From: a virus
Reading direction: 5' to 3' (one strand)
DNA: 64,000 bases
IMG/VR virus record: IMGVR_UViG_3300050821_001227
Location: 1 to 64,000 of that record
Shown here: positions 17,200-43,551 of the stretch, piece after piece
Position numbering within the stretch: position 1 is the stretch's first letter
Layout of the letters: each line of letters begins with the position of its first letter
The notes under the pieces: model-generated
Told to the model about the DNA's origin: nothing
What the model saw: only the letters and a program-made list of their open reading frames with translations
The model's database searches: none
Position numbers and translations under genes: made by a program

Positions 17200-17610
17200 G
17201 TTGCCGAGGATTCTGTTGCCAAGTTCCTCGGCGGACTCCGTCAACGGATGCGATTAAGCAGCCGCTGCCATTGCAAGAGGTTTAGTCGTTGCAATTAGGG
17301 TTCGCTCTCTTTAAGGATTGAAGCCATCCTGCACAGTCCAGAACTTGCTCATCGTCGCAATCGAAACCATGACGAGCCCACTAAGACACTCATTCATCGA
17401 GACACCTGTTTATGCAGACAGGCCCGCTGCTGAAGGTAGGATGAACTACATCAGCGTCATCATGAATGTCTTGGTGGACTCGGCGGGAATCGAACCCGCG
17501 TCTTACAACGGAGCCTGCACCTTCATACTATGCGTATCTACTCGGGCGGGTTGCTCCGGTGCTGCAACCGCACAGATTAAATTGGTCTCAGACTTCGAGA
17601 CCCGTCCGAT
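17200..17610 (-). ncRNA. ssrA: circularly permuted two-piece tmRNA
   Basis: T-arm and acceptor GCGGGUUCGAUUCCCGC-CGAGUCC-ACCA end at 17472; matching 5' GGGCUCG (G3.U70) starts downstream at 17379; tag ATTKPLAMAAAA* at 17292-17254; outer ends approximate. Confidence 0.88.
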
Positions 17611-35283: not shown

Positions 35284-36615
35284 ATGAGTAAGTATTCCAA
35301 AGCTGTCGTCGATGCAATGACGAGCGAACAGTACCGTGAGAACTTTAACAACGATCCGGAGTTCCGGACGTACATCGATGGTGAATACAGCAACAACGCT
35401 CCCACGGAAGCCGTTGCCGCACCCCCGCAAGTCGGGAGACGTGGCCCCCGCGACCGCAAGGAAGTAGCCGCAGTATCCCCCGTCGCAGCGCCGACACGCG
35501 TATTTGATCCGTCATTCGACGACGATCCGAACGGTGCACCGCCAGCCGCAGCAGCGGCAGTTGAAGTGCCCGTAGAACCGCCTGTTGCGCCCGTGCCCGC
35601 CGCAGTTGTTCCCCCGGTCGTTGAGACCCCGGCTGAACTGCCCGAGAAACGCCATGAGTATGATATCGTGGACAAGAAGGGCCGCAAGATCGGCGGACGA
35701 CAAGTATTCAAGCACAAGACCGATGCTGAGTTGATCGAACAGTTGACCAAGTCGAACATCAACCTGCGCGTCATGGTGCAAGAGATTCGCGAAAAGCAGT
35801 TGCTCGAAGGCACAGAACTGCCGGAAGAAACCACAGCGGTTCAACCGTTGTCGCTTCGCCCGGTTCTGACTGCCGAAGAACGCGCTGCGACCGAAGCCAA
35901 GCTGCAAGACCCGGCAGAATCGGCCCGCGCCCAGTACGTACTGGATCAAGACGACAACCGTCGCGTCCAGAACGATCTGTTGACCAGTAATTTTGAGAGC
36001 CGCGTGTTACTGGCTCTTGAGAGTTTCAAGAATCGCAACCGTGATTATGTCCCGACCCAAGATAATGCCGCCAAGTTGGTGGGCTTTATTGAACGTCGCG
36101 GCCTTGATCCAACGAATGCAAAGAACTACCAAAGAGCGTTCGACGTGCTCCGTGATAACGGCAGCCTCGACGGCGCTTCTGAGAATCAGGTGACTGAGCC
36201 CGTATTGGCCTCAGCACCTCCTATAGTGCGTGAGGAAAAGACGGCACCCGTTGCGACGGTGCCCGTGGTTGAACCCACTCGGATTAGTGAGGTAACGCCA
36301 CCGCCAGCTAGGGTTGCAGCCCAAGTTCCAACAGGGCTATCGAGTGCCGATCAGACATCCGATATCGACAACCCCTTGCCACAAGCACCTTGGTTAACAA
36401 TCAGGGTTCACTTGAAAGACGCAAAGGGTCAGCCGACCAGCCAGTACCAAGAGTTCAATAACCTCGACGCAATCGACCACTGCGACGACAAAACGTTGAA
36501 GCACATCATCGCCGATCAGTCACCCAGAGGCAAGGCATTACGAGCCGCGTGGGATAACGCTGAAGCGGAGAAGCAGCAACGTTTGGCCGACCAGCGGCGT
36601 AAGCGTGGGTATTAA
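35284..36615 (+). CDS. putative scaffolding protein
   Basis: Pro/Ala/Glu-rich, directly before capsid gene. Confidence 0.65.
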   Translation: MSKYSKAVVDAMTSEQYRENFNNDPEFRTYIDGEYSNNAPTEAVAAPPQVGRRGPRDRKEVAAVSPVAAPTRVFDPSFDDDPNGAPPAAAAAVEVPVEPPVAPVPAAVVPPVVETPAELPEKRHEYDIVDKKGRKIGGRQVFKHKTDAELIEQLTKSNINLRVMVQEIREKQLLEGTELPEETTAVQPLSLRPVLTAEERAATEAKLQDPAESARAQYVLDQDDNRRVQNDLLTSNFESRVLLALESFKNRNRDYVPTQDNAAKLVGFIERRGLDPTNAKNYQRAFDVLRDNGSLDGASENQVTEPVLASAPPIVREEKTAPVATVPVVEPTRISEVTPPPARVAAQVPTGLSSADQTSDIDNPLPQAPWLTIRVHLKDAKGQPTSQYQEFNNLDAIDHCDDKTLKHIIADQSPRGKALRAAWDNAEAEKQQRLADQRRKRGY

Positions 36616-36673
36616 AGAACTCCCGTTGTATCTCTCTGGGAGGAGAGTGAACAACAGAAAGATTGGATAATTT

Positions 36674-38641
36674 ATGACGGGTTATAGTCCCGCAATTAAC
36701 AATCAGTCGAACCTCCCGCAATCGACTGTGAAGTATTCATAGTACTTCTCCCTAGCATTCGATTGCGTAGTAAATGTATGACAAGAAGTTCAGGGAAAAC
36801 TTGAAGGCCCAGACTCCCTTCGTGGCTTGTTCAGAACGTTTGGATTTGCCGATGAAGTCTGGTAACCAGTATGAGATTTCAGAAACATGATAGTCCCATA
36901 CAGTTTAAAATCTTGCTAAATCGGTGAAGGTCTGTTAAAATCAGATAATACCGAGGAAACTTGTGAAACGAAAGACAGCACAGTACATGGCGGGACTTAT
37001 GGACGCGGAAGGAATGTTCGACATCGAACGTGCCTTCAGAAGCGATGATAGGAACTGCTACAACTATACCGTAAAGATTGTGCTTACCAATACAAATATT
37101 GCCCTGATGAAGTGGGCCGTTAAGTACTTTGGGGGCGTTTACAAAAAGCGCAAACCTGAGGTTGGTAAGAAACAAGCTTATGATTGGATAATCTCTAATC
37201 AGAAGCACGGGCTGTCGTTCATCTCCCAAATATTTCCGTTCCTTGTGGTCAAAAGAGCAGAAGCACAAACGTTAGTTGACTACTATGCCATGTATGGCAA
37301 AGAGTTTCCAGAACGACGTGAACAACTGTTCTTCAAAAACAAAGAATTGAAATGGGACAAAAGTTCCGTAACGACTGACATGCAAGATATCTCTAATGCT
37401 TATGCGGCAGGGTTTGTAGATGGCGACGGGAGTATAGACACTCCGCACCGTTTAGCAGTATCCAACGCATGCAAAGTCTTGATTGATTTGTTCAAAGCAA
37501 CGTATGGCGGGTCGTATTATTTGGATGTCCGTGAGGAACCAAATCAAAACGATTCTCACGTGTGGTATCTTTCTAATCCTACAAAGGTTGAAAAGATAGT
37601 GCTTTCGTGGCTGCCATACTTGATTGATAAACATCATCGAGGCGAACAGGTGCTAAAACGCCTGCGAGATAAAGATACAGTCTGAACTAACGGGCGACCG
37701 TTAGAGTGAACCTGACGGAAGTCAGGGTTACGAAGCCGTTCTGGTTTCGTATTCATCCAAAACACAGTTGGTTCATGTACGTTCCGTTGGCAGCCAACAC
37801 TTCGACCACCGTTGAAGGAACCGTTGGGACTTCCATTCCGGTCAGCGTGCTGAACACCACCGCTGTCATCGGCGAATACGCCGACTACGCTAACTTCTCC
37901 TCGCTGTCTTTGGCCACTGCCATCGACAACACCGTCGAGAACGTCGCGAAGGAACTGTCGTACCGCTTGGGCGAGTCTTTGAGCGCTCTGGTTCGTGCGA
38001 CCGCAGACGGCGCGTCCGCCATCGACTCCAGCGTGCTTGTTGAACTGGGTGCTACCAGCACTTCCAGCTTCACCGCTCTGTCTTTGAGCCAAATCCGTAA
38101 CTCTGTCCAGTCTCTGGCAGGTCGTTCGGTTCGGCCCTTCGATGAAGCAAGCAAAGCATTCTGCGGTGTCATCCATCCGTTCGCCCTTGGCGACGTTCTG
38201 GCTGACAACAGCAACGATTCGCCGCTCGACATGTTGAAGCACACCCCCGTGGGTATGGCCAAGATGGAAGAGTTGGTGAGCGTTGATCTGACCGAGGTCA
38301 TTGAATTGCCCGCTTCTGGCGTGCATTTCTTCCAGACCAACCAGATCACCACGACTTCGAACTATCAGACTGTCACTGGTCTGACGGCTCTCCGCACCTA
38401 CATCTTCGGGCGCGATGGTATCTACTCCATCAACCTTGGAGCACAGGGCGACACCGGGTTCGGCGACGGTGAATGGCAGAACATTAAGTGCAACATCAAG
38501 CAGAACGTTGAACCCAGCGTTGCTGACCCCGAAGGACTCATCCCCGGATGGACTTCGTATCGTGTGCACTTCACCACGTCTCTCGGACCTGACACGACCA
38601 TTCGCCAGCGCCAGATCGACGCGGCTAGCGCCATTTCCTAA
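36674..38641 (+). CDS. major capsid protein, spliced join(36674-36736,36777-36877,37771-38641), 344 aa
   Basis: joined exons read ...STVKYYDKKFRENLK...SGNQYEMFMYVPLAANT...VIHPF...; position after scaffold; resembles N4-gp56-like capsids. Confidence 0.85.
36737..36776 (+). other. 40-nt coreless group-I-like mini-intron
   Basis: P1 GAAGUAU/GUACUUC with U.G at the 5' site; P10 UCAUA/UAUGA; terminal G; carries in-frame stop; removal restores the frame. Confidence 0.75.
36878..37770 (+). mobile_element. group I intron carrying a LAGLIDADG homing endonuclease
   Basis: P1 UAUGAGAU/GUCCCAUA (U.G); P3 36910-16/37382-88; P4 UCGGUGAA...AAUACCGAG; P7 GUAACGACUG/AAGAUACAGUC; P9.0 AACU/AGUU; terminal G at 37770. 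Confidence 0.92.
36963..37685 (+). CDS. double-motif LAGLIDADG homing endonuclease
   Basis: YMAGLMDAEG and YAAGFVDGDG. Confidence 0.92.
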   Translation: MKRKTAQYMAGLMDAEGMFDIERAFRSDDRNCYNYTVKIVLTNTNIALMKWAVKYFGGVYKKRKPEVGKKQAYDWIISNQKHGLSFISQIFPFLVVKRAEAQTLVDYYAMYGKEFPERREQLFFKNKELKWDKSSVTTDMQDISNAYAAGFVDGDGSIDTPHRLAVSNACKVLIDLFKATYGGSYYLDVREEPNQNDSHVWYLSNPTKVEKIVLSWLPYLIDKHHRGEQVLKRLRDKDTV

Positions 38642-38649
38642 AGGAATCT

Positions 38650-39120
38650 ATGGCACTAAAAAACGTACCCAAGTCTCCTGAGCACCGCGCCAAGCTTATT
38701 CAAGTTTTGGAGCGTACTTGGGAGAATAGACCTAACAAGCACAAGATTCAAGCGATTGATAAAGTCGCAATGACTGGCTGCTGTGTCACCTGTGGTCAAG
38801 TTCCTTTGAAAGTAGTACGTCATCGGAACAACAAGCAGGGATATGTTAGAGACCAGTATCTATGCTGGGTCGGTTCGCTACGAAGCGGCGAAGCACAAGT
38901 TTCCTATGCGGGTCAGGCACTAGAAATGCTTGACTCGCAGAAGGGTAACTGCGCTTTGTGCGAACAGCCTCTTGACCGTTTTGACATGGTTTTAGATCAC
39001 GACCATGAAACGAAACTCATTCGCGGGTTTCTTCATCAAAACTGTAACAAAGGGCTAGGCATGCTTGGAGATAATCCGAGCATTCTCAAACGAGCCATCG
39101 ACTACCTAACAAAGAAATAG
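38650..39120 (+). CDS. endonuclease VII-family HNH protein
   Basis: QKGNCALC...LDHDHET..IRGFLHQNCNKGLG. Confidence 0.88.
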   Translation: MALKNVPKSPEHRAKLIQVLERTWENRPNKHKIQAIDKVAMTGCCVTCGQVPLKVVRHRNNKQGYVRDQYLCWVGSLRSGEAQVSYAGQALEMLDSQKGNCALCEQPLDRFDMVLDHDHETKLIRGFLHQNCNKGLGMLGDNPSILKRAIDYLTKK

Positions 39121-39697: not shown

Positions 39698-39741
39698 GGA
39701 TTTGGGATTCACAAGATTCACAGACGTTATAAACCTGTGGA

Positions 39742-39785
39742 GAGGGGCTGTTCGAGCAGTCCCTCACTTCTTCTCGAAAGGAAGT
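39742..39785 (+). promoter_or_regulatory. kissing-loop RBS element C
   Basis: loops UUCGAG / CUCGAA. Confidence 0.85.
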
Positions 39786-39787
39786 AC

Positions 39788-40252
39788 ATGAAACACGAAA
39801 CAGAAGCAGAACGTTTGGCGTATAACGCCTATTACCGAAACTATCGCAAGCAGTGGTCTCCTGAGATGAAGGAGAAAGAACGGCAGCGTAAGCGAGATTG
39901 GATTGCAGCACATCCAGAGCAGCATCGTACAAACACTCGTCGTGCTGCGCGAAAGCGCCGGATTATAATTCAAGCGCATCCCGAGTTTCAAAAAGCAGCA
40001 CAGGTTCAGTTCAACCATTCAATAAGTCTGGAAGAATATGAATGTAGGCTGCGCGACCAAGGCGGCATTTGCCGTCTTTGTAATAAGCCGTTCACGGACG
40101 ATAATCCTCCCGTGCTCGACCACAATCACGACACTGCGCAGTTGCGAGATTTTATCCATCGGCAATGTAATGCGGCTCTTGGATTATTTAAAGACAGTGT
40201 TGAGGTTTGCAAGTTGGCCGCTGAATATTTAGAGCGGCACAGTAGAGGATGA
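39788..40252 (+). CDS. endonuclease VII-family HNH protein
   Basis: QGGICRLC...LDHNHDT..LRDFIHRQCNAALG. Confidence 0.88.
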   Translation: MKHETEAERLAYNAYYRNYRKQWSPEMKEKERQRKRDWIAAHPEQHRTNTRRAARKRRIIIQAHPEFQKAAQVQFNHSISLEEYECRLRDQGGICRLCNKPFTDDNPPVLDHNHDTAQLRDFIHRQCNAALGLFKDSVEVCKLAAEYLERHSRG

Positions 40253-42219: not shown

Positions 42220-43551
42220 ATGACAGGTCAAAATTCCACCATCACGCTACAAGATATTTCGGACCAAGCGAGTTCCTTTGGAGACATAGCTCCCGCACTG
42301 GCAACAGGCGGTTACTCGACGCAGCCCGCCCAAAGCATCGCGAACGACGTGATGACGGCATTCCTGCAAGGTACAGGGGACGGCAACCCGTTCAACTGGA
42401 AGTTCAACAGCTTCAACGTCACACCGTTCTACACGATTAGTCTTCAGCAGGACTATTTCGTACCCGGCGTCGTGAACTTGGGCTGGCTCGAATCCTCGTA
42501 TGCGATCAACATCAACCAGACGAGCAATCCGAAGCAGAAGTTGTATCAGGAAGTTCACCGTGCGGAGGAAGTCACCTTCGACCAGACAGGATACCCCGGC
42601 AAGATTTGTTGGATGCAGAATGATACGATGCAGTCAGGTACATGGGGACAAACGCAGTTGGCGTCACCCAGCGGCCTGCTGAACCCCGGCGTAGGAGTTG
42701 AGTATATCAACCCGGCTGGCGCTCCGCAGAACCCGACCAACCCGACAACCTGCATCACGGACCCTTACGGCAACCTCTGGGCTGTGACGTTCGGTGTCAA
42801 TCAGGCAACCGCGACATGCGGAACCTTCAATCCGTTCAAACCTATTGTGACGGCGACTTCGGTCACCAGCAATGTAATTACGGTCACGGCGCAGCACAGT
42901 TTGTCTGTCGGTACGCAGGTCAAGCTGCAAGGCACCGCCGAGTCTGGCGTCAACGGCCAACTGTTGACCATCGCTACTGTCATCGGAAGCGCTCCTAACT
43001 ACACAGGCTTTACGGCAGCGCTGACCATCGGCAACTACAGCAACGCTTCAGATACGGGCAATGTTCAGATCGTGCCCGCATACCCGGTGTATCAGGCCGG
43101 GAATCCTTCAGTCTCTAGCACCGTGGCGACCACGGTTGCTGATGGCACTGTTGTTTGGACAGCGGTCAACCCAAAGGGTCAAGGATTCAGATTGAGTCCC
43201 ATCCCTCCCAACAGCGGAGTCGTTTGGCAGGTCAACCCGGTCGCGCAGATGCGCGTACCGCGCTTCAGTTCGATGCAGCAGACTCTCGAACCGATTCCTG
43301 ATGACTGGGAGATGTTCTTCAAGAACGGCTTCTACGCACAATGCTATCGGCACAGTCCGGACCCGAAGGTTCGTCTGAAGTTCAAAGACGAATGGGCGCT
43401 GTTTATGCAGTCGCTCGACAACGCAGTCAAGCAAGGACAGCGTGAGACAGACGATTTTGGATTTTACCCCGGATCACCGGGCGTTATGGACACTGGGTTT
43501 TGCATCAATCCTGTTAATCCCGCGTGGCCGTACGGCCCTTATTGGGGCTAG
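42220..43551 (+). CDS. putative head-tail adaptor/virion protein
   Basis: PFNWKFN and PIPDDW motifs shared with 47698-48651. Confidence 0.6.
   Translation: MTGQNSTITLQDISDQASSFGDIAPALATGGYSTQPAQSIANDVMTAFLQGTGDGNPFNWKFNSFNVTPFYTISLQQDYFVPGVVNLGWLESSYAININQTSNPKQKLYQEVHRAEEVTFDQTGYPGKICWMQNDTMQSGTWGQTQLASPSGLLNPGVGVEYINPAGAPQNPTNPTTCITDPYGNLWAVTFGVNQATATCGTFNPFKPIVTATSVTSNVITVTAQHSLSVGTQVKLQGTAESGVNGQLLTIATVIGSAPNYTGFTAALTIGNYSNASDTGNVQIVPAYPVYQAGNPSVSSTVATTVADGTVVWTAVNPKGQGFRLSPIPPNSGVVWQVNPVAQMRVPRFSSMQQTLEPIPDDWEMFFKNGFYAQCYRHSPDPKVRLKFKDEWALFMQSLDNAVKQGQRETDDFGFYPGSPGVMDTGFCINPVNPAWPYGPYWG

What the first reader, a model, noticed from the sequence alone, without database searches (positions are those of the whole stretch)
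36730..36781. 40-nt coreless 'satellite' intron in the capsid gene, possibly spliced by the neighbouring ribozyme
Seen: the capsid frame hits TAG at codon 23 and resumes out of frame. Removing exactly 36737-36776 gives VKY|YDKKFREN and, with the downstream intron also removed, a 344-aa protein. The insert has the group I substrate signals: 7-bp P1 with U.G at the 5' site, a perfect in-register 5-bp P10 with the 3' exon, a small hairpin and a terminal G. It has no room for P3-P8. A complete group I intron begins 101 nt downstream, and joining exon 1 directly to exon 3 is out of frame. Inference: the full intron core docks this second P1 and excises it, like engineered trans-excision-splicing ribozymes, which would make an essential gene dependent on the mobile intron. 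Alternative: T4 gene 60-type ribosomal bypass between the matching TAT codons (36734, 36777), giving one Tyr instead of two.
Basis: partly seen in the sequence, partly recalled or inferred. Interest (0 to 1): 0.93.

Follow-up and report, generated by a model that had tools for sequence, protein, structure and literature searches.

The report
Coreless mini-intron spliced from capsid mRNA
A 40-base insert that breaks a soil phage's capsid gene is missing from the matching RNA, so it is a tiny intron that keeps a self-splicing intron's splice-site guide but has no catalytic part and probably borrows the ribozyme of the complete intron next to it.

Summary
36737-36776 breaks the major capsid frame. 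Removing these 40 nt and the 893-nt intron 36878-37770 gives a 344-aa protein. Uninterrupted close relatives read VKYYDKK at the join.

New here: a 1523-nt metatranscriptome contig matches the window with 0 mismatches and skips exactly both stretches. Contigs of two DNA runs keep the insert. The insert is therefore removed from RNA, and gene 60-type bypass is not needed.

The insert has a contiguous 12-nt guide (7-bp P1 with U.G, 5-bp P10) and a terminal G. It has no core. A full 237-nt intron sits at the same site in L169. The mini looks like that intron's two ends.

Six mini sequence types at two sites show compensatory P1 and P10 changes. Among 79 distinct capsid sequences, all 12 with a mini have a full intron 20-101 nt downstream; two of these contigs end inside that intron. 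None of the 6 with a full intron at the mini's sites has one.

That the neighbour's core does the splicing is inferred, not shown. This scan reported coreless mini-introns in other phage genomes before, none with RNA data.

The parts
36674..36736 (+). Capsid exon 1 (codons 1-21). Its last 7 nt, 36730-36736 (GAAGUAU), are the 5' strand of the mini-intron's P1.
   Evidence: The peptide is conserved with Tunturi_3 and with IMG/VR relatives.
36737..36776 (+). 40-nt coreless mini-intron. 36737-36741 is the P10 guide strand. 36742-36748 is the P1 guide strand, with G36742 opposite the splice-site U. 36749-36759 is a variable linker. 36760-36776 is a conserved 3' tail ending in G36776.
   Evidence: Skipped exactly in RNA contig X3 record 5. 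Guide and shuffle test. The 41-nt homologue keeps both ends. No Rfam match.
36777..36877 (+). Capsid exon 2 (101 nt). Its first 5 nt, UAUGA, pair with the P10 guide.
36878..37770 (+). Complete 893-nt group I intron at the E|M site, the proposed helper ribozyme.
   Evidence: Boundaries from comparison with uninterrupted relatives. Skipped exactly in RNA contigs of runs X3 and X7. Weak Rfam RF00028 match at 37565-37704. Its ORF-less 254-nt homologue at the same site in L066 scores 55 bits against a cut-off of 50.
36963..37685 (+). LAGLIDADG homing endonuclease ORF (240 aa) inside the helper intron.
   Evidence: Pfam PF00961, E = 4.4e-11.
37771..38641 (+). Capsid exon 3, to the stop codon.

Best explanation
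36737-36776 is a non-autonomous remnant of a group I intron.

Shown or read directly: what survives is the 5' hairpin with the internal guide, which pairs with the last 7 nt of exon 1 (U.G at the splice site) and the first 5 nt of exon 2, plus a 17-nt 3' tail ending in G. It is removed from the capsid mRNA at exactly these boundaries.

Inferred mechanism: the complete group I intron 101 nt downstream (36878-37770) supplies the catalytic core. The mini-intron's P1 hairpin docks into that core. Exogenous G cleaves after U36736. The mini-intron's terminal G36776 then occupies the G-binding site. P10 aligns exon 2 and the exons are ligated. The helper also splices itself out.

The mini-intron, exon 2 and the endonuclease-bearing intron appear to travel between phage genomes as one cassette.
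For: (1) RNA evidence. X3 record 5 is a 1523-nt metatranscriptome contig at depth 15.4. It matches 36500-36736, 36777-36877 and 37771-38496 with 0 mismatches. The joints 36736|36777 and 36877|37771 appear in no contig of DNA runs X1 or X4. X3 holds the intron interior as a separate contig but no contig with the 40-mer.

(2) The joined RNA carries the cassette's own exon 2. Among the fetched loci, the nearest mini-less allele differs at 16 or more of 101 nt. The closest uninterrupted protein found, P0123, differs at residues 251 and 273, inside the stretch where X3 is identical to the window.

(3) Group I signals. There is a contiguous 12-nt guide and a terminal G; 62 of 200000 shuffles do as well.

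(4) Origin. L169 has a full 237-nt ORF-less intron at the same Y|Y site, with guide GUACUUU.

(5) Covariation.
- Exon GTG AAG with guide ...CUUC in the window, against exon GTC AAG with guide ...CUUG in L172/L173.
- At the D|K site, CUACGAU/GUCGUAG against UUACGAU/GUCGUAA.
- P10 pairs exon AAGAAA with guide ...UUUCUU in L080, and exon AAGAAG with guide ...CUUCUU in L101.

(6) Association. 132 loci collapse to 79 distinct sequences.
- Mini with a full intron 20-101 nt downstream: 10, plus 2 contigs that end inside that intron.
- Mini alone: 0.
- Full intron at the Y|Y or D|K site with a downstream intron: 0 of 6.
- No insert: 4 with a downstream intron, 57 without.
- Fisher test, mini against full: p = 1.2e-4.

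(7) The helpers sit at three different sites (E|M, Y|E, L|K).

(8) No other group I core is detectable in the 83-kb record.
Against: - No call tests catalysis or dependence on the helper.
- Co-conversion during homing could by itself keep the mini next to the intron. The cassette 36712-37770 is 90-100% identical to L096 in 50-nt windows, mostly 94% or more, against 74-98% in the exon flanks.
- The loci are related and partly picked by patterns aimed at minis, so the Fisher values overstate independence.
- X7 holds low-depth RNA-library contigs with the unspliced 5' junction (36616-36766). One contig begins with the mini's last 3 nt and has the big intron spliced out. This could be precursor, DNA carry-over or an assembly chimera.
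- The two nucleotides before the terminal G match the helper's presumed J7/9 receptor fully in only 3 of 6 mini types. The window's own has 1 of 2 pairs (sequences, read by eye).
- No conserved pairing between mini and helper was found.
- Contigs drop rare variants, so an insert-less allele with identical exons is not strictly excluded.
- The record is 86% complete, so a second core could lie in the missing part.
Confidence: 0.6

Rival explanations
1. The mini-intron is an autonomous minimal group I ribozyme. It splices itself, perhaps helped by exon structure, as was claimed for the 67-nt PaSSU intron of Phialophora rDNA.
For: PMC3160393 (abstract, results and discussion read) reports 63-75-nt introns with P1, P7, P10 and an intron/3'-exon pairing, and cites in vitro splicing of the 67-nt one. 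The D|K-site minis can pair CGGAAU or CGGAAC with exon AUUCCG or GUUCCG, with one compensatory change.
Against: Only 28 nt remain after the guide, and their middle 11 nt are wholly different in the 41-nt homologue. No conserved internal hairpin that could be a P7 was found. The intron/exon pairings are reached by 5-25% of shuffles and are not kept in L172. An autonomous intron should also occur without a neighbour, and 0 of 12 do.
Confidence: 0.12
2. Proteins remove the 40 nt: a site-specific endoribonuclease plus an RNA ligase, supplied by the phage or the host.
For: The related phage Tunturi_3 is annotated with two RNA ligases, an RNA 2'-phosphotransferase and a kinase. I did not check whether the window encodes them.
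Against: All six mini types obey group I rules: U before the 5' site paired to G, a terminal G, and a guide complementary to both exon ends with compensatory changes. A protein nuclease gives no reason for this. Junction sequences differ between the Y|Y and D|K sites.
Confidence: 0.07
3. The joined X3 contig comes from an insert-less, intron-less sibling allele. In this phage the 40 nt stay in the mRNA and are handled in translation, either by a gene 60-like hop from TAT 36734 to TAT 36777 or by re-initiation at ATG 36774.
For: - Matched TAT codons, with the take-off codon in the 5' side of a hairpin and TAG two codons later.
- The insert ends in an in-frame ATG.
- X7 holds unspliced pieces.
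- Uninterrupted close relatives exist: P0123, 342 of 344 residues identical, on an 85-kb contig.
Against: - X3 is identical to the window over 1064 nt, including the cassette-type exon 2 and TAT 36777. Nine of the 10 uninterrupted loci printed have TAC there.
- X3 holds the intron interior but no 40-mer, which fits splicing better than a mixture of two alleles.
- A hop gives one Tyr where relatives have two.
- The stop is not adjacent to the take-off codon.
- D|K minis have no matched codons.
- All six helper introns also end in AUG or UUG, so that ending is a trait of this intron family and not a start signal.
- No Shine-Dalgarno-like run precedes ATG 36774.
Confidence: 0.07
4. The insert is a dead scar in a defective or mis-assembled genome.
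For: The genome is a metagenome assembly, 86% complete.
Against: The insert is found in 15 contigs. Both of its ends are conserved while the flanking exons differ at synonymous sites. Exon 1 keeps its peptide. The RNA joint is exact.
Confidence: 0.02

Closest known systems
Small 'degenerate' group I introns of fungal nuclear SSU rDNA (Phialophora PaSSU 67 nt; Arthonia, Porpidia; 56-81 nt). PMC3160393, read.
   Same: Both are tiny derivatives of group I introns that keep P1 with a G.U pair and P10 and are absent from the mature RNA. Both are thought to arise from a full intron by internal loss.
   Different: The fungal ones are in rRNA, are said to keep a P7 with a G site, end in U, and are reported to self-splice with long exon context. 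Here the host is a phage protein-coding gene and the size is 40-72 nt. No P7 candidate is conserved and the terminal nucleotide is G. A full intron always lies 20-101 nt downstream. No sequence comparison with the fungal introns was made.
Canonical phage group I introns with homing endonucleases (Rfam RF00028). The T4 td, nrdB and sunY examples are recalled, not taken from a call.
   Same: P1, P10 and terminal-G rules apply. The mini sits at a site that holds a full intron in a relative (L169). It sits in an essential, highly expressed gene.
   Different: There is no P3-P9 core and no ORF, so it cannot be a ribozyme on its own.
T4 gene 60 50-nt coding gap with the MobA cassette. PMC5009743 passage; bioRxiv 10.1101/2022.08.31.505936 passages.
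   Same: Both are short out-of-frame inserts with a stop, in an essential phage gene, that move together with a homing endonuclease. The T4 gap has been suggested to be a degenerate group I intron.
   Different: The T4 insert stays in the mRNA and is hopped over by the ribosome. Here an RNA contig lacks the insert.
Engineered trans-excision-splicing ribozymes and 'spliceozymes'. PMC2532722 and PMC4094466, search listings and abstract starts only.
   Same: A group I core removes an internal segment that has no core of its own and joins the flanks.
   Different: Those are laboratory constructs with the guide on the ribozyme. Here the guide is on the substrate, and the arrangement is natural and in cis.
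Euglena plastid group III introns (recalled; no call).
   Same: They are streamlined remnants of a self-splicing intron class and are thought to rely on factors from elsewhere.
   Different: They derive from group II, not group I, and occur in organelles.

Membership tests
Group I intron (RF00028) | P1 helix between the 5' exon end and an internal guide, with U.G at the 5' splice site | tested here: met
   7 bp, GAAGUAU/GUACUUC, with U36736 opposite G36742. Compensatory G-C to C-G change in L172/L173.
Group I intron (RF00028) | Terminal G and a P10 pairing with the 3' exon contiguous with P1 on the guide | tested here: met
   Terminal G is 36776. UCAUA/UAUGA gives 5 bp. All six mini types end in G with P10 of 5-8 bp.
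Group I intron (RF00028) | Conserved catalytic core P3-P9 with the G-binding site in P7 | tested here: not met
   Only 28 nt lie beyond the guide. No Rfam match over the insert at E <= 1. No conserved hairpin.
Group I intron (RF00028) | Exact excision from RNA with exon ligation | tested here: met
   X3 record 5 skips 36737-36776 with 0 mismatches on either side. The joint is absent from DNA contigs. This is contig-level evidence.
Group I intron (RF00028) | Splicing started by exogenous guanosine, without protein | not testable with these tools
   Needs in vitro splicing.
Fungal small degenerate group I introns (PaSSU type) | P7 with a bulged G site, and a pairing between mid-intron and the 3' exon | tested here: inconclusive
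   No P7 candidate is shared by the 40- and 41-nt types. Intron/exon duplexes are reached by 5-25% of shuffles.
T4 gene 60-type translational bypass | Insert retained in the mRNA | tested here: not met
   The joined form is the RNA contig at depth 15.4 in X3, and no X3 contig holds the insert. Low-depth unspliced pieces exist in X7.
T4 gene 60-type translational bypass | Matched take-off and landing codons with a stop directly after take-off | tested here: not met
   TAT and TAT match, but TCA precedes TAG. D|K-site minis have no matched codons. Relatives have two Tyr, not one.

The most novel reading that the evidence does not exclude
One ribozyme serves two introns. The core of the downstream group I intron excises a coreless satellite intron from the same pre-mRNA, so an essential capsid gene depends on keeping a mobile intron.

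Such satellites arise repeatedly when two full introns lie close together and one can lose its core. They may persist because they interrupt the target of EndoVII-type homing endonucleases, like the one encoded in the full D|K-site introns. That would make them an RNA-spliced counterpart of the T4 gene 60 insert.
Probability: 0.55. Interest if true: 0.92.

Novelty: new variant of a known kind. Interest (0 to 1): 0.88.

Why it matters
Group I introns are taken to be self-sufficient: each carries its own ribozyme. A natural intron that keeps only the substrate half, and is still removed from an essential mRNA, would show that a group I core can act on a second, separate splice-site pair in nature. 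Until now that was known only from engineered ribozymes.

Three further points follow.
- It would give a group I parallel to the path proposed from group II introns to spliceosomal introns, in which cis elements shrink and catalysis is supplied from elsewhere.
- It would tie a host gene's survival to a selfish element.
- Gene callers will mis-annotate such capsid and portal genes as broken.

The RNA contig found here turns the question into a short bench experiment.

My full-text searches found no natural case in phages or bacteria. The terms searched were 'mini-intron' with 'group I intron' and 'phage', 'degenerate group I intron', 'trans excision-splicing', and 'lacking the catalytic core'.

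Tried and rejected
- Frameshifting across the insert. Both coding frames are closed inside it (TAG 36740, TAG 36753, TAA 36771). The third frame is open but would add 13 residues that no relative has. Rejected.
- A repeated element. The 40-mer occurs once in the window at up to 3 mismatches. Its first 18 nt with flank hit 9 IMG/VR contigs, of which only 2 are capsid genes. The other 7 are unrelated contexts, probably because the stretch is an inverted repeat.
- Pairing between the mini's 3' part and the helper intron. The best duplexes fall at different, non-homologous places in the window and in L066. Nothing to report.
- An intron/3'-exon helix. It is not above shuffles.
- Other broken genes. 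tblastn of 633 Tunturi_3 ORFs, of which 53 had hits, showed the split pattern only in the capsid gene. One same-frame 235-nt gap was seen in a structural gene. Most genes had no hit, so this says little.
- L081, a 2177-nt contig. It equals the L080 gene with its 49-nt mini and both full introns absent. It differs at 3 of 70 nt in one exon, and I could not learn whether its data set is RNA. It could be a transcript or an intron-less allele. Not used as evidence.
- P0134, a 56-aa product with exons 1 and 2 joined and then reading into an intron. It could be a mini-less allele or a partly spliced RNA. Its contigs could not be fetched.
The pattern gave 27 stretches, 5 of them in capsid genes.
Full report
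WHAT IS THERE

The window is 64 kb of an 83,210-nt IMG/VR phage record, estimated 86% complete. Its major capsid gene starts at ATG 36674. After Tyr21 (TAT 36734-36736) the frame reads TCA TAG. The conserved sequence resumes at TAT 36777 in the +1 frame, which is closed just upstream by TAA 36771-36773.

The nearest annotated relative is the major head protein of Tunturiibacter phage Tunturi_3. That gene is uninterrupted and reads ...LPQSTVKFYDKKFRENL.... Ten uninterrupted relatives are printed. The closest (L002-L006) have AAG TAT TAC GAY at the site, which is VKYYDKK. Exact removal of 36737-36776 therefore restores what relatives have.

With the second interruption also removed (36878-37770, boundaries), the coding sequence is 1035 nt, or 344 aa, with no stop. 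290 of 344 alignment columns are identical to the Tunturi_3 protein. Exon 1 joined directly to exon 3 is out of frame.

THE DOWNSTREAM INTRON IS A REAL GROUP I INTRON

Rfam gives only a weak partial match in the window: 19.8-20 bits at 37565-37704. The reason is that a 240-aa LAGLIDADG ORF (Pfam E = 4.4e-11) fills most of the intron.

The ORF-less 254-nt homologue at the same E|M site in L066 scores 55 bits against a gathering score of 50, with P1 formed by the exon end. The exon and guide covary between the two: GUAUGAGAU with GUCCCAUAC in the window, AUACGAGAU with GUCCCGUAU in L066 (sequences, read by eye).

The strand GCAAGA there complements UCUUGC at about 36911-36916, which I checked by eye only.

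THE 40 NT ARE ABSENT FROM RNA

One search for public runs found an RNA-seq metatranscriptome, coded X3, holding 83% of the sampled words. Its contigs were laid on 36500-38700.

- Record 5 is 1523 nt at depth 15.4. It matches 36500-36736, then 36777-36877, then 37771-38496, with 0 mismatches. The tool lists 'skips 40' (ends TC..TG, one-letter ambiguity) and 'skips 893'.
- The one-letter ambiguity is resolved by the group I rule. Only the cut after U36736, with the intron ending at G36776, puts U.G at the 5' site and G at the 3' end.
- X3 also holds the intron interior (36893-37693, depth 6.7) as a separate contig, but no contig with the 40-mer. That is what splicing predicts: a long excised intron is sequenced, and a 40-mer is lost in library preparation. 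It is not what DNA carry-over or a mix of two alleles predicts.
- A second RNA run, X7, shows the 893-nt joint.
- DNA run X1, which may be the window's source, has the whole stretch with both inserts in a 22.5-kb contig.
- An unrelated wetland DNA run, X4, has a 65-nt contig across the whole insert with 0 mismatches.
- Neither DNA run shows either of the two joints, 36736|36777 and 36877|37771.

Caveats:
- These are contigs, which drop rare variants and can join k-mers from different molecules.
- X7 holds low-depth pieces with the unspliced 5' junction (36616-36766). One contig starts with the mini's last three letters and has the large intron removed. From contigs I cannot tell whether that is a precursor, an intermediate or a chimera, so the order of the two splicing events is open.

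COULD THE JOINED CONTIG COME FROM AN INSERT-LESS SIBLING?

Close uninterrupted genes exist. P0123 is 344 aa on an 85-kb JGI contig and is identical at 342 of 344 residues. Its two differences (residues 251 and 273) lie where X3 is identical to the window.

The window's 101-nt exon 2 is cassette-specific. The only near match among the fetched loci is the mini-bearing L096, with 4 mismatches. Every mini-less locus differs at 16 or more positions. The nearest uninterrupted genes are at most about 92% identical in nucleotides. An allele that lost both inserts precisely would look the same, so the rival is weakened, not excluded.

WHAT THE INSERT IS

Its first 12 nt are a contiguous guide. UCAUA pairs with the first 5 nt of exon 2 (P10). 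GUACUUC pairs with the last 7 nt of exon 1 (P1, U.G at the site). 62 of 200000 shuffles do as well.

After the guide come 11 variable nucleotides and a 17-nt tail ending in G.

A 41-nt homologue occurs at the same site in L066, L067, L094, L095 and L097. It keeps the 12-nt guide (12 of 12) and the tail (one substitution, one extra U). Its middle 11 nt are entirely different, and the flanking exons differ at many synonymous sites. L172 and L173 carry a 40-nt form in which exon GTG has become GTC and the guide's last C has become G. That is a compensatory change in P1.

L169 has a full 237-nt ORF-less intron at exactly this Y|Y site, with guide GUACUUU. It is related to the 566-616-nt introns found six bases further on, at the D|K site, in L032, L048, L061, L064 and L128-L131. 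The D|K introns carry an EndoVII-family endonuclease gene. The mini therefore looks like the two ends of such an intron with the core deleted.

The D|K site has its own minis: 49 nt (L080, L099, L112, L114), 45 nt (L101) and 72 nt (L031). Their guides covary with their exons:
- GUCGUAG with CUACGAU against GUCGUAA with UUACGAU.
- P10 pairing exon AAGAAA with guide ...UUUCUU in L080, against exon AAGAAG with guide ...CUUCUU in L101.

P10 is 5-8 bp in the minis against 3-4 bp in the full introns at the same sites.

WHY THE NEIGHBOUR IS THE LIKELY CATALYST

(a) There is no room for a core and no conserved hairpin.

(b) Every mini has a full intron 20-101 nt downstream. The pairings seen are:
- Y|Y mini with an E|M intron: the window, L096 and the 41-nt group.
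- Y|Y mini with a Y|E intron: L172 and L173.
- D|K mini with an E|M intron: L031.
- D|K mini with an L|K intron only 20 nt away: L080-type and L101.

(c) The counts are as follows. 132 loci held both anchors and collapse to 79 distinct sequences.
- Mini with a downstream intron: 10.
- Mini where the contig ends inside that intron: 2.
- Mini alone: 0.
- Full Y|Y or D|K intron with a downstream intron: 0 of 6.
- No insert: 4 with a downstream intron, 57 without.
- Fisher test: p = 1.2e-4 (mini against full) and 9e-10 (mini against all others).

The contrast with the full introns at the same sites is the most telling point. A core seems dispensable only where another core is near. The sequences are related, and some were fetched with patterns aimed at minis, though not at the downstream intron. 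The p-values are therefore indicative only.

(d) The 83-kb record has one detectable core.

(e) A tentative point, read by eye from the sequences. All six helpers can pair the two nucleotides before their terminal G with the two after P7 (UU with AA; AU with AU in L080). Naming this pairing P9.0 is from memory. The minis match their own helper in 3 of 6 types, and L080 and L101 differ in step with their helpers. The window's own mini matches in 1 of 2 positions.

THE COMPETING EXPLANATION OF THE ASSOCIATION IS HITCH-HIKING

Between the window and L096, the stretch 36712-37770 (end of exon 1, mini, exon 2 and intron) is 90-100% identical in 50-nt windows, mostly 94% or more. The exon flanks range from 74 to 98%.

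In the L080 group, the exons between the introns are shared among backgrounds that are only 85-88% identical. The mini therefore moves with the endonuclease-bearing intron by co-conversion.

Hitch-hiking explains the linkage. It does not explain how the 40 nt leave the RNA, nor why helpers at three different sites are found.

RIVALS

- Autonomous minimal ribozyme, following the fungal precedent (PMC3160393): possible but unsupported here.
- Protein-dependent cutting and ligation: gives no reason for the guide rules.
- Bypass or re-initiation: argued against by the RNA joint, by the YY of relatives and by the D|K minis. The ending in AUG or UUG is shared by all six helper introns, including those not at a codon boundary, so it is not a start signal.

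COMPARISON WITH THE KNOWN, AND NOVELTY

The closest described things are the 56-81-nt degenerate group I introns of fungal rDNA. Functionally, the closest are engineered trans-excision-splicing ribozymes. The T4 gene 60 insert is a cousin in its genetics (a short insert that moves with a homing endonuclease) but not in how it is resolved.

My searches found no natural coreless group I intron in a phage or bacterium, and none tied to a helper intron.

Within this scan, earlier follow-up reports describe like inserts in capsid, portal and tRNA genes of other phages. All of them state that no RNA data were available. Those are unchecked AI notes and I did not test them. What this report adds is the RNA-level joint.

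VERDICT

Removal at RNA level is well supported at contig level. A group I-derived origin is well supported. Catalysis by the neighbouring core is the best explanation, at about 0.6, and is untested.

Noticed in passing
window 17254-17533 (-): Phage-encoded permuted tmRNA. Rfam RF04321 scores 74.4 bits against a cut-off of 47. ARAGORN gives the tag peptide ATTKPLAMAAAA.
   Followed up: no
window 38650-39120 and 39737-40252 (+): Two free-standing EndoVII-family (PF02945) genes lie just after the capsid gene. They are related (37% and 25% identity over 65-84 aa) to the endonuclease encoded inside the full D|K-site capsid introns of relatives (L128 2435-2842). The mini-intron may interrupt such an enzyme's target, as the T4 gene 60 insert is thought to. 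This is speculative.
   Followed up: partly
first ~60 codons of the capsid gene, loci L031-L173: This region is a dense intron hot spot. Full or mini introns occur at five sites (Y|Y, D|K, L|K, Y|E, E|M). L080 has a 20-nt exon between a 49-nt mini and a 663-nt intron, followed by a 70-nt exon and a 224-nt intron.
   Followed up: partly
L081 (whole contig) against L080: This 2177-nt contig equals the L080 capsid gene with the mini and both full introns precisely absent. Exons are 100%, 100%, 95.7% and 99.94% identical. The deviant exon is identical to that of L112. It is either a spliced transcript or an intron-less allele.
   Followed up: partly
proteins P0134 and P0123: P0134 (56 aa) has exons 1 and 2 joined and then reads into an intron. 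It is either a mini-less allele with the intron or a partly spliced RNA. P0123 is an uninterrupted 344-aa capsid on an 85-kb contig that differs from the window's product at 2 residues.
   Followed up: partly
window 42232-42891 and 43126-43542 (+): The homologue of Tunturi_3 structural protein gp12 matches in two same-frame pieces with a 235-nt gap and overlapping query ranges. This could be an in-frame insertion or another interruption.
   Followed up: no
window 36963-37685: The LAGLIDADG ORF runs on into the 3' core of its intron and stops inside the stretch that matches J8/7-P7. Other first readers' notes place P6', P7 and P3' at 37361-37388, inside the ORF.
   Followed up: partly
Tunturi_3 record (L092, L093): The cultured relative is annotated with two RNA ligases, an RNA 2'-phosphotransferase and a kinase, which together form an RNA-repair set. 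I did not check whether the window has them.
   Followed up: no
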